Assembly (NCBI GenBank): GCA_964511345.1
Contig: CAZEEV010000001.1
Coordinates: forward strand, 150,621-214,620
Origin: an uncultured Pseudomonadales bacterium
GTDB taxonomy: Bacteria; Patescibacteriota; Microgenomatia; UBA1400; PJMF01
Direction of reading: 5' to 3'
Length of the DNA: 64,000 nt
Shown here: one piece after another, positions 59,697 to 59,940 of the stretch
Numbering within the stretch: the first letter of the stretch is position 1
Layout of the letters: every line of letters begins with the position of its first letter
The notes under the pieces: model-generated
Seen by the model: only the letters and a program-made list of their open reading frames with translations
Database searches by the model: none
What the model was told of the DNA's origin: nothing
Translations under genes and position numbers: made by a program

Positions 59697-59940
59697 ATTT
59701 TGCAATTACATTGCAAAAAAATAAGAAAGTTGTCTTTCTTATTGCAAGCTATGCTTTGGGTCCGAAATTCACGCAAGGTATCTTTCGTACCTGCTTGTCC
59801 GAAATCGCTTTGCATCTTTCGTACCTGCTGCTTTTTGCAATTACATTGCAAAAAGACAGGGTCCGAAATTCACGCAAGGTATCTTTCGTACCAGCTGCTT
59901 TTTGCAATTACATTGCAAAAAGACAGGGTCCGAAATATAA
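59697..59940. repeat. tandem array of about 3 copies of a ~68-bp module containing the hairpin palindrome TTTTTGCAAT-TAC-ATTGCAAAAA and a conserved GGGTCCGAAATTCACGCAAGGTATCTTTCGTACC block
   Basis: Palindrome at 59697-59718, 59832-59856 and 59900-59925. Conserved block at 59758-59795 and 59859-59893, partial at 59796-59828. Confidence 0.6.

What the first reader, a model, noticed from the sequence alone, without database searches (positions are those of the whole stretch)
59697..59940. Tandem ~68-bp repeat modules with a 9-3-9 palindrome between recO and glyQS
The 257-nt recO-glyQS spacer consists almost entirely of repeats. The hairpin palindrome TTTTTGCAAT-TAC-ATTGCAAAAA occurs 3 times. A conserved 35-nt block GGGTCCGAAATTCACGCAAGGTATCTTTCGTACC occurs twice fully and once partially, itself with an AGGTA/TACCT hairpin. 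There is an additional AATAAGAAAG-TTGT-CTTTCTTATT palindrome. No T-box consensus, as used by many glyQS genes, was recognisable. The array could be a set of operator sites for a dimeric regulator, a run of attenuator hairpins, or a small MITE-like repeat inserted in the intergenic region. The two ORF-track ORFs over it are artefacts of the repeats.
Basis: seen in the sequence. Interest (0 to 1): 0.6.

Follow-up and report, generated by a model that had tools for sequence, protein, structure and literature searches.

The report
Amplified hairpin-forming promoter cassette upstream of glyQS
The repeat-filled gap before the glycyl-tRNA synthetase gene of this Patescibacteria genome is that gene's promoter region, built from locally duplicated copies of a roughly 56-base self-complementary promoter cassette that relatives also carry in front of ribosomal protein gene rpsU; it is a real and conserved curiosity, not a riboswitch, a CRISPR/TIGR array or a high-copy mobile repeat.

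Summary
Nothing like it occurs elsewhere in the 64 kb.

The boxes L (ATCTTTCGTACC) and R (GGGTCCGAAAT) are inverted repeats of each other. L-P-R therefore folds into one 23-bp hairpin. The right arm of the last P is a -35 (TTGCAA). R fills the 17-bp spacer, TATAAT follows, and the ATG lies 11 nt further on. The predicted mRNA is nearly leaderless, which leaves no room for a T-box, and Rfam finds none.

Relatives show three things:
- The cassette is present or absent between close lineages.
- The 35-nt unit occurs 0, 1 or 2 times within one species.
- The same cassette, 90% identical, sits upstream of rpsU in the same genome as a glyQS copy.

The core is 93-95% identical between species whose fourfold sites are only about 55% identical. 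Every substitution in the stems is compensatory.

Best reading: a propagated, hairpin-maintaining promoter cassette amplified by slippage. The upstream copies have no -10. What the hairpin does is not shown. Interest is moderate.

The parts
59159..59695 (+). recO (178 aa), the upstream flanking gene; stop codon TAA at 59693-59695
   Evidence: RecO_N matches at E 1.8e-21. The synteny DUF4012-recO-glyQS-273 aa-mraZ-rsmH is kept in all relatives.
59698..59719 (.). P1: orphan copy of the palindrome (TTTTGCAAT-TAC-ATTGCAAAAA) with no L or R box, placed 2 nt after the recO stop
   Evidence: The covariance model R1 matches only its P part, at 23 bits. The same sequence is present in Logan contigs L002 and L003.
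59720..59743 (.). H2: 10-4-10 hairpin AATAAGAAAG-TTGT-CTTTCTTATT. It resembles the short hairpin that follows the recO stop in relatives lacking the cassette (AATAAG-AAG-CTTATT in L020).
   Evidence: (I9).
59758..59791 (+). Short unit: R1 (GGGTCCGAAAT, 59758-59768), linker TCACGCAAGGT, then L1 (ATCTTTCGTACC, 59780-59791)
59797..59825 (+). Older short unit: R2 (GTCCGAAAT, 59797-59805), linker CGCTTTGC, then L2 (ATCTTTCGTACC, 59814-59825). It is homologous to the 35-nt R-linker-L units of relatives, whose linker is TCGCKTKGC.
   Evidence: L1+R2 (59780-59805) scores 23 bits as a minimal hairpin with model R1.
59814..59880 (+). 67-nt module, copy 1: L2, TGCTG, P2 (59831-59855), ACA, R3 (59859-59869), linker TCACGCAAGGT. 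The hexamer at the -10 position is TTCACG, so this copy is predicted to be dead as a promoter.
   Evidence: D1. Model R1 scores 88.6 bits on 59814-59869. The -10 judgement comes from the sequence.
59881..59947 (+). 67-nt module, copy 2: L3 (59881-59892), AGCTG, P3 (59898-59922), ACA, R4 (59926-59936), running into TATAAT
   Evidence: D1, 90% identical to copy 1. Model R1 scores 89.1 bits on 59881-59936. The unit folds as a 23-bp hairpin at -15.8 kcal/mol, z -6.1.
59913..59918 (+). -35 hexamer TTGCAA, inside the right arm of P3
   Evidence: Promoter scan: TTGCAA-17-TATAAT matches 10 of 12 positions and is the only promoter-like site in 59300-60300. It is one of only three TTGNNN-16/18-TATAAT sites in the window.
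59936..59941 (+). -10 hexamer TATAAT. Its first T is the last base of R4. The transcription start is predicted near 59948, giving a leader of about 5 nt.
   Evidence: The distance from -10 to ATG is 10-11 nt in all 9 lineages, with or without the cassette. The start site is inferred, not measured.
59953..61353 (+). glyQS (466 aa, alpha2-type glycine-tRNA ligase), the gene served by the promoter
   Evidence: Homologues of 466-467 aa cover 100% of the protein, which supports this start codon.

Best explanation
The spacer is the glyQS promoter region. It is made of locally amplified copies of a lineage-specific, self-complementary promoter cassette, written L-P-R.

One cassette of about 56 nt has three paired segments:
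- an outer stem, L TTTCGTACC against R GGTCCGAAA;
- a 3-bp step, CTG against CAG;
- the inner palindrome P, CTTTTTGCAAT-TAC-ATTGCAAAAAG.

In the last copy, the right arm of P is the -35 (TTGCAA), R fills the 17-bp spacer, TATAAT follows, and the ATG lies 11 nt downstream. glyQS is therefore read as an almost leaderless mRNA with no 5' riboswitch.

The cassette looks like an rpsU-type promoter whose -35 and spacer segment became an inverted duplication. It was then copied to glyQS, an instance of promoter propagation.

The array (orphan P1, two short R-linker-L units, two 67-nt modules) grew by slipped-strand or unequal recombination between the direct R/L/P repeats. The upstream copies carry TTCACG where a -10 should be. 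They are most probably inert by-products, or at most decoy sites.

The property that is maintained is intrastrand pairing at the DNA level, seen as compensatory changes and free variation in loop size.

Shown here: the anatomy, the promoter consensus, the second locus, the copy-number variation, the conservation and the covariation.

Inferred: the transcription start, the slippage origin, the direction of copying (rpsU to glyQS), and any regulatory effect of the hairpin, such as occluding the -35 when it extrudes.
For: Anatomy and promoter:
- The anatomy is read from the sequence and the repeat finder.
- TTGCAA-17-TATAAT at 59913-59941 is the only promoter-like site in the region.
- The -10 to ATG distance of 10-11 nt is conserved in 9 lineages.
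- Rfam gives no credible hit.

Hairpin:
- All five L-P-R variants fold to the same topology, at -15 to -20 kcal/mol and z -5.3 to -8.7.
- On 8 units, 94% of cells are paired, against 32-50% when the partners are slid.
- Three pairs change on both sides (G-C to A-T at columns 8/60, 17/53 and 25/45), and no pair changes on one side only.

Conservation:
- glyQS fourfold-site identity between the window and L022/L023/L025/L032 is 0.53-0.57.
- The 61-nt core is 93-95% identical to L022/L023 (not computed for L025 or L032), and 92-95% identical to the rpsU copies.

Dynamics:
- L022, L023 and L025 are 98.6-99.2% identical in glyQS yet carry 0, 1 and 2 of the 35-nt units.
- The cassette is present in L032 and absent in L034, which share 98% GlyRS identity.
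- Lineages without the cassette use an extended -10 (TGTATAAT) instead.

Second locus:
- The 841-kb contig Ga0228535_1000003 carries the cassette upstream of glyQS (L093 = L023) and, as two 65-nt modules, upstream of rpsU (L074).
- These two regions share 77 nt at 89.6% identity and nothing else.
- rpsU copies are also present in L045, L095/L096 and L097.
- The right half resembles the cassette-free rpsU promoter of a more distant lineage (1 of 2000 shuffles reaches the score), but not the cassette-free glyQS promoters.

Local, not dispersed:
- A covariance-model scan with filters off finds it nowhere else in the 64 kb.
Against: - No transcription start or expression data exist. The promoter is a consensus match only.
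- Conservation of the whole cassette, left arm and linkers included, is stronger than a promoter alone needs. Some further constraint or a homogenising process must act, and it is not identified.
- Covariation in a DNA palindrome can arise from template-switch mutation (quasipalindrome correction; mechanism described in PMC7202029) without any selection. It does not prove that the hairpin has a function.
- Several close lineages do without the cassette, and in L032 P is split by a 49-nt insertion. The palindrome is therefore dispensable.
- Only 8 units from about 6 lineages support the covariation.
- The rest of this genome, including its own rpsU, could not be examined.
- The copy number in the window rests on a single assembly.
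Confidence: 0.55

Rival explanations
1. Operator array. P (10-3-10) and the L/R boxes are binding sites for a symmetric dimeric or tetrameric transcription factor. The factor would repress or activate glyQS and rpsU together. The extra modules would be auxiliary operators for cooperative binding or looping.
For: - P overlaps the -35 and R lies in the spacer.
- The same module sits in the same orientation before two translation genes in at least two species.
- Sequence conservation far exceeds that of neutral sites.
- L-N5/6-R units such as TTTCGTAC-CATTGT-GTACGAAA look like classical operators.
Against: - The spacing between the arms of P is 3, 9 or 13 nt in different lineages, and 49 nt are inserted in L032. 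This is incompatible with a fixed dimer geometry.
- The two loci of one genome differ at stem positions in a compensatory way, which a single factor does not explain.
- Linkers are conserved as well as boxes.
- No regulator gene lies next to the glyQS locus. MraZ is the only transcription factor in the 64 kb.
- The cassette has been lost in close relatives.
Confidence: 0.2
2. Selfish small mobile element. L-P-R would be a REP/REPIN-, BIME- or Correia-like miniature palindromic element with an outward-facing -35. It would be mobilised in trans and expand locally, with no role for the host.
For: - It has terminal inverted repeats (L and R) and hairpin topology.
- R and L alternate with short linkers, as palindromic units do in BIMEs (BIME definition in PMC2817692).
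- Presence and absence differ between close relatives.
- A second locus exists in the same genome, 90% identical including the linkers.
- Another small GC-rich element has inserted into it in L032, so such elements move in these genomes.
Against: - The exact palindrome occurs at only two loci in an 841-kb contig and at one locus in 64 kb, even with a covariance model.
- Both loci are the same two genes in two species. The two glyQS lineages (L023 vs L032) have fourfold sites about 55% identical, and their GlyRS proteins are 85% identical. The assignment of the L045 rpsU contig to the L032 species rests on similar contig size and 86% bS21 identity only.
- The cassette always has its R end fused to TATAAT.
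- No target-site duplication is visible.
- No transposase or RAYT is encoded in the window.
- The cassette is 93-95% conserved across species, which a decaying selfish repeat would not be.
Confidence: 0.15
3. RNA-level element. The hairpins would act in a transcript, either as an attenuator, terminator or stabiliser of the recO-glyQS message, or as small guide-type RNAs such as the stem-loop tigRNAs of TIGR-Tas systems known in CPR bacteria.
For: - The predicted RNA fold is strong, at -84 kcal/mol and z -5.9.
- The compensatory pairs are what an RNA stem would show.
- CPR genomes do carry tandem stem-loop arrays (PMC12045711; bioRxiv 10.64898/2026.09.09.750476).
- A CUU lies at the base of the outer stem (ATCTTTCG).
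Against: - The only consensus promoter lies 3' of the array.
- No T-run follows any hairpin.
- At rpsU the upstream gene is divergent, so nothing reads into the cassette.
- Rfam gives no hit.
- No Nop/Tas protein lies near either locus. The unannotated ORFs in the window have no Pfam match, and the seven of them compared with the PDB chains had no significant match, none of it to a Nop or Tas protein. The 273-aa neighbour is a membrane-anchored protein.
- The segments between the stems are 4-5 nt and identical between modules, not 8-12-nt variable spacers.
Confidence: 0.05

Closest known systems
Putative mobile promoters / promoter propagation (Matus-Garcia et al. 2012, PMC3488235)
   Same: Upstream regions of more than 50 nt at 80% identity or better sit before non-homologous genes in one genome. 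In contig Ga0228535_1000003, the glyQS and rpsU upstream regions share 77 nt at 89.6% identity and nothing else. Two-member families with about 92% identity are the commonest class in that survey.
   Different: This cassette is a long hairpin-forming inverted repeat. Pairing is conserved across species by compensatory changes. It is tandemly amplified with strain-level copy-number variation. Membership in the window's own genome could not be tested, because its rpsU lies outside the 64 kb.
REP / BIME / REPIN elements (PMC2817692, PMC3333891, PMC3116915)
   Same: Short palindromic units alternate in orientation (R, L), separated by short linkers. They sit in intergenic DNA, their copy number varies between strains, and they can form hairpins.
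   Different: REPs occur at more than 100 copies per genome with an associated RAYT transposase, and they usually lie 3' of genes. Here there are 1-2 loci per genome of about 0.8 Mb, no transposase is seen, and the element is always fused to a -10 as a promoter.
Correia elements of Neisseria and other promoter-bearing MITEs (from my own knowledge, not checked here)
   Same: Small elements bounded by inverted repeats, whose ends supply promoter hexamers to the neighbouring gene.
   Different: Correia elements are 100-155 bp, number in the hundreds, and are flanked by TA duplications. None of these features is seen here.
TIGR arrays of TIGR-Tas systems (PMC12045711; bioRxiv 10.64898/2026.09.09.750476)
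   Same: Tandem units of about 35 nt with two alternating short repeats, or tandem stem-loops. They are found in CPR/Patescibacteria genomes and are not detected by CRISPR tools.
   Different: There is no tas (Nop-domain) gene at either locus. There are no 8-12-nt variable spacers, and the modules are identical. Box C/D is not arranged around spacers. The array lies upstream of the predicted transcription start.
T-box leader of glyQS in Firmicutes
   Same: The same gene, and a structured region upstream of it.
   Different: No T-box model matches. The promoter is 11 nt from the ATG, so there is no leader.

Membership tests
T-box riboswitch | Match to the T-box covariance model (stem I, specifier, T-box sequence) | tested here: not met
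   An Rfam scan of 59000-60600 at E up to 10 returns only chance hits (sau-13, mir-7371 and similar). The whole window gives no family at gathering score.
T-box riboswitch | A transcribed 5' leader of about 200 nt or more between promoter and start codon | tested here: not met
   The only consensus promoter ends 11 nt before the ATG, and this spacing is conserved in 9 lineages. It is a consensus prediction, not a mapped start site.
Intrinsic terminator / attenuator | GC-rich hairpin followed by a T-run on the transcribed strand | tested here: not met
   There are 0 terminator-like sites in 59300-60300. P is flanked by a 5' T-run and a 3' A-run on both strands.
MITE | Many dispersed copies per genome | tested here: not met
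   There is one locus in 64 kb by motif search and by covariance model with filters off. The exact palindrome occurs at two loci in an 841-kb contig of a relative. The rest of this genome could not be tested.
MITE | Terminal inverted repeats plus target-site duplication | tested here: inconclusive
   L and R are 9-nt inverted repeats. No flanking direct duplication is visible when the glyQS and rpsU copies are compared.
REP/BIME | High copy number (over 100) and an associated RAYT (Y1 transposase) | tested here: not met
   Copy number as given for the MITE test. Pfam scans of all 61 ORFs in the window find no transposase. The genome-wide absence of a RAYT could not be tested.
REP/BIME | Palindromic units in alternating orientation separated by short linkers | tested here: met
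   The order in the window is R1-L1-R2-L2-P2-R3-L3-P3-R4. The R-to-L linkers (8-11 nt) and L-to-R linkers (5 nt) recur in relatives.
Putative mobile promoter (PMC3488235) | More than 50 nt at 80% identity or better upstream of non-homologous CDSs in the same genome, with non-homologous upstream CDSs | tested here: met
   Tested in the relative's genome Ga0228535_1000003. The two upstream regions share 77 nt at 89.6% identity (E 8e-26), and there is no other similarity between the glyQS and rpsU loci. It could not be tested in the window's own genome.
TIGR-Tas array | Adjacent gene for a Nop-domain Tas protein | tested here: not met
   There is no Nop hit in any window ORF. None of the seven unannotated ORFs that were compared with the PDB chains matched a Nop or Tas protein. 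The genes called beside the rpsU and glyQS loci of relatives show none either. Very divergent Tas proteins could escape sequence searches.
TIGR-Tas array | Units with two variable 8-12-nt spacers flanked by box C/D motifs | tested here: not met
   The segments between stems are AGCTG and ACAG (4-5 nt). They are identical between modules and conserved between species.
CRISPR array | Identical repeats separated by unique spacers of similar length | tested here: not met
   The intervals between P copies are themselves repeats.
Operator of a dimeric transcription factor | Two half-sites at a fixed spacing, conserved wherever the site occurs | tested here: not met
   The gap between the arms of P is 3 nt (window, L022-25, L045, L074), 9 nt (L095), 13 nt (L097), or holds a 49-nt insertion (L032).
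Operator of a dimeric transcription factor | A cognate DNA-binding protein | not testable with these tools
   No candidate is encoded next to glyQS. An OmpR-type response regulator is divergent from rpsU in relatives, but such regulators bind direct repeats.

The most novel reading that the evidence does not exclude
The L-P-R cassette could be a structure-based promoter switch that needs no dedicated regulator. In negatively supercoiled DNA, the AT-rich 23-bp hairpin or cruciform would extrude and sequester the -35 and spacer. Transcription of two translation genes (rpsU and glyQS) would then be coupled to superhelical or growth state in genome-reduced Patescibacteria. The compensatory substitutions would reflect selection for pairing in DNA. 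The upstream modules would tune the response by absorbing supercoils.
Probability: 0.15. Interest if true: 0.7.

Novelty: new variant of a known kind. Interest (0 to 1): 0.4.

Why it matters
Almost nothing is known about promoters or gene regulation in Patescibacteria, which are uncultivated, reduced and poor in regulators.

This locus offers a concrete case that can be tested:
- a promoter whose -35 lies inside a long self-complementary cassette;
- the cassette shared between a ribosomal protein gene and an aminoacyl-tRNA synthetase gene;
- conservation far above the neutral rate, with purely compensatory stem changes;
- rapid gain and loss of copies.

It also explains why glyQS here has no T-box: the predicted mRNA is nearly leaderless.

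There is a practical point as well. Such arrays break short-read assemblies at predictable positions, and they can be mistaken for CRISPR- or TIGR-like arrays or for riboswitches.

If the hairpin proves to be merely self-maintaining, the locus is still a clean natural example of promoter propagation combined with quasipalindrome homogenisation.

Tried and rejected
- Tandem Repeats Finder on 59400-60300 returned nothing. The array was recovered with the repeat finder.
- A scan of genome contigs for TTTGCAATTACATTGCAAA gave 16 single hits in unrelated taxa. One was in a Patescibacteria contig but inside a permease gene. All are chance matches, and the source genome is not among the species representatives.
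- Two scans of viral contigs gave 0 hits and 12 chance hits without P.
- BLAST of the spacer against plasmids and phages found no match.
- The translations of the spurious ORFs across the array were used as a protein query, to find other arrays that had been called as genes. There were no hits.
- The metagenome scan for P with any loop gave 58 loci. Only three (L045, L074, L093) are related. The rest are chance matches or unrelated conserved contexts.
- An ECF-sigma-type promoter reading of the R-linker-L unit (GAAAT...CGTA) was rejected, because the spacing varies between 14, 15 and 17 nt.
- Upstream P copies as extra promoters were rejected, because the -10 position reads TTCACG or TTCGCG.
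- A divergent promoter from the left arm was rejected, because no -10-like hexamer lies at 17-18 nt on the minus strand.
- TIGR-Tas and CRISPR were rejected (see the membership tests).
- The 12-mer ATCTTTCGTACC inside glyQS of L026-28 was judged coincidental, because it encodes the conserved IFRT codons and the window's own gene differs there.
- Assembly artefact was rejected, because independent Logan contigs branch at the positions predicted for k=31.

Full report
**1. The observation**

The 257 nt between the recO stop (59693-59695) and the glyQS ATG (59953) contain, in order:
- P1 (59698-59719);
- hairpin H2 (59720-59743);
- a GCTATGC remnant (59748-59754);
- R1, an 11-nt linker, L1 (59758-59791);
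- R2, an 8-nt linker, L2 (59797-59825);
- P2 (59831-55), R3 (59859-69), an 11-nt linker, L3 (59881-92);
- P3 (59898-922), R4 (59926-36), then TATAAT.

Here P is CTTTTTGCAAT-TAC-ATTGCAAAAAG, L is ATCTTTCGTACC and R is GGGTCCGAAAT. The full tandem unit is 67 nt (59814-59880 and 59881-59947, 90% identical), not 68.

Shuffles give 0.02 expected copies of P and 0 of the 34-nt block. Four of the 13 perfect hairpins with arms of at least 9 bp in the window lie here.

Logan contigs of the same strain from two sequencing runs end or start exactly where a k=31 graph must branch if the modules are repeated. The repeat is therefore not an artefact of this assembly, although the copy number rests on it. 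Tandem Repeats Finder missed the array.

**2.

L and R are reverse complements of one another, with one mismatch. CTG before P pairs with CAG after it. L-P-R is therefore one 56-nt hairpin with 23 pairs (9 + 3 + 11). It is predicted at -15.8 kcal/mol as DNA, z -6.1. The whole spacer folds at z -7.7 as DNA and z -5.9 as RNA.

The right arm of P3 is a -35 (TTGCAA, 59913-18). R4 fills the 17-bp spacer and TATAAT (59936-41) follows. This is the only promoter-like site in the region. The ATG lies 11 nt further on, so the predicted leader is about 5 nt.

That -10 to ATG distance (10-11 nt) holds in all nine related lineages examined. No Rfam family matches, T-box included. The upstream modules have TTCACG where the -10 would be, and no hairpin is followed by a T-run.

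**3. The organism and the window**

GlyRS is 86-93% identical to proteins of Patescibacteria. One of these hits, at 86% identity, is labelled Candidatus Pacebacteria bacterium GW2011_GWF2_38_9.

The window is mostly a glycosyltransferase-rich surface-polysaccharide cluster, with argS, ruvCAB, recO, glyQS and mraZ-rsmH. It has no tRNA, no transposase, and no transcription factor other than MraZ.

**4. Relatives at recO-glyQS**

Synteny is constant, but the spacer varies:
- 24 nt (L029-31), 37 nt (L034-36) and 46-47 nt (L020/21, L026-28). These have no L, P or R, and they use an extended -10 (TGTATAAT or TGTTATAAT).
- 88 nt (L022): one L-P-R.
- 123 nt (L023/24): one extra 35-nt R-linker-L unit.
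- 158 nt (L025): two extra units.
- 158 nt (L032): L-R-L, with P split by a 49-nt GC-rich insertion and the -35 kept.

L022, L023 and L025 are 98.6-99.2% identical in glyQS, so the unit number varies within a species. L032 and L034 share 98% GlyRS identity yet differ in having the cassette.

**5. A second locus**

The metagenome scan for P with any loop returned mostly unrelated sequence. However, the same 841-kb contig that carries the L023 glyQS locus (L093) also carries two 65-nt modules (L074). These end in R'+TATAAT upstream of rpsU (bS21, PF01165), divergent from an OmpR-type regulator.

L045 (a 748-kb contig of another species), L095/96 and L097 carry one cassette at the same place. Seven Logan contigs of that locus break inside P.

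Within one genome, the glyQS and rpsU upstream regions share 77 nt at 89.6% identity and nothing else. That satisfies the published criterion for a putative mobile promoter (PMC3488235). The window's two-module array aligns with the rpsU array of L074 over 148 nt at 89% identity.

More distant rpsU loci (L105-113) lack L, P and R. Their promoter (CTGCAAAAGTGACATTTTCCTGATATAAT) nevertheless resembles the right half of the cassette, with 1 of 2000 shuffles reaching the score. Cassette-free glyQS promoters do not resemble it. This suggests the cassette arose at rpsU by inverted duplication of the -35 and spacer segment, and was later copied to glyQS.

**6. Constraint and covariation**

Fourfold-degenerate sites of glyQS are 53-57% identical between the window and L022/23/25/32, which is near saturation. 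The 61-nt core (L through TATAAT) is 93-95% identical to L022/L023, and 92-95% identical to the rpsU copies of other species.

On an alignment of 8 distinct units, 94% of cells pair, against 32-50% when the partners are slid. Three pairs show G-C to A-T exchanges on both sides:
- L/R, columns 8/60;
- the CTG/CAG step, columns 17/53;
- the P arms, columns 25/45 (TTGCAA becomes TTACAA on the left and TTGTAA on the right in L097).

No pair changes on one side only. All other variation falls in loops and linkers. Two of these exchanges distinguish the glyQS and rpsU copies of a single genome.

The loop of P is TAC, TGC, GCA, 9 nt or 13 nt, or holds a 49-nt insertion.

**7. Interpretation**

The maintained property is intrastrand pairing, and half-site spacing is not conserved. 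This argues against a classical dimer operator. It fits either selection for a DNA hairpin or cruciform, or homogenisation of the arms by template switching in quasipalindromes (mechanism described in PMC7202029).

An RNA role is unlikely for three reasons. The cassette lies upstream of the predicted start, it lacks terminator features, and at rpsU it has no co-directional upstream gene.

A high-copy mobile element is also unlikely. A covariance model with filters off finds no other copy in 64 kb. The exact palindrome occurs at only the same two loci in a near-complete genome. No transposase is present in the window.

TIGR-Tas arrays are tandem 36-nt or stem-loop units known in CPR (PMC12045711; bioRxiv 10.64898/2026.09.09.750476). 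They were considered and rejected for four reasons:
- There is no Nop/Tas gene at either locus.
- The 273-aa neighbour is a membrane-anchored protein.
- The unannotated ORFs have no Pfam match, and the seven of them compared with the PDB chains had no significant match.
- There are no 8-12-nt variable spacers.

**8. Verdict**

This is a real, unusual but explicable structure. It is the glyQS promoter region, built from a propagated, hairpin-maintaining promoter cassette that has been tandemly amplified, probably by slippage between its own direct repeats. Only the last copy has a -10.

Still unknown: whether the hairpin regulates anything, what keeps the left arm and linkers so conserved, and how many loci the whole genome holds.

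It is a new variant of known kinds (promoter propagation and palindromic intergenic repeats), of moderate interest.

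Noticed in passing
L032 2912-2960; L045 3580-3608, 3659-3673, 3717-3748: A GC-rich element of about 49 nt (GACCGAGCTTTGCGAGGGAATGTCCGAAGTGGAGACGGAGGACGAGTCG) is inserted in the centre of palindrome P in L032. Partial copies flank the rpsU terminator in L045. It is absent from the homologous sites of L074 and from the window. It may be a second small dispersed repeat family of these genomes.
   Followed up: partly
L074 616-867; L045 about 3300-3565; L095-L113 rpsU: The bS21 gene (rpsU) appears to start with CTG in L074 and L045, and with TTG in the other lineages. 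The start follows a strong Shine-Dalgarno sequence (GGGAGGTGA). No in-frame ATG or GTG is available upstream.
   Followed up: partly
window 62237-62290: About five direct repeats of TTGAT(R)TTGT, at a period of roughly 10-11 nt, lie in the 285-nt spacer upstream of mraZ. They look like a candidate MraZ operator.
   Followed up: no
window 59936-59955 and the same place in L020-L036: glyQS is predicted to be nearly leaderless in all nine lineages, with TATAAT 10-11 nt from the ATG and no Shine-Dalgarno sequence. Lineages without the cassette use an extended -10 (TGTATAAT or TGTTATAAT) and have no recognisable -35.
   Followed up: partly
L026 1007-1018 (also L027, L028; 9-mer in L029-31): The 12-mer ATCTTTCGTACC, identical to the L box, occurs inside the glyQS coding sequence of relatives that lack the cassette. 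There it encodes the IFRT codons of QFIFRTLEFEQ. The window has GTTTTTCGCACC at that position. This is probably coincidence.
   Followed up: partly
L037, L039, L040, L043, L046, L049, L053, L062, L071, L072, L089: Eleven unrelated metagenome contigs share a conserved context of about 110 nt around TTTTTGCAATATTATTGCAAAAA (...GGTGCAATACC[P]TCCATAGCAATAAGGATTTAAG...). It is a conserved element of some other organism group and its nature is unknown.
   Followed up: no
window 1-57100: The window is dominated by more than 25 glycosyltransferase, PMT_2 or Wzy-type genes, a surface-glycan cluster. It also holds two NYN-domain proteins (22234-22830 and 37247-37816), argS and ruvCAB. There is no tRNA gene and no Rfam family at gathering score in 64 kb.
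   Followed up: no
window 61366-62187: A conserved 269-273-aa protein lies immediately downstream of glyQS in all relatives. It has an N-terminal membrane anchor and no Pfam or PDB relative.
   Followed up: partly
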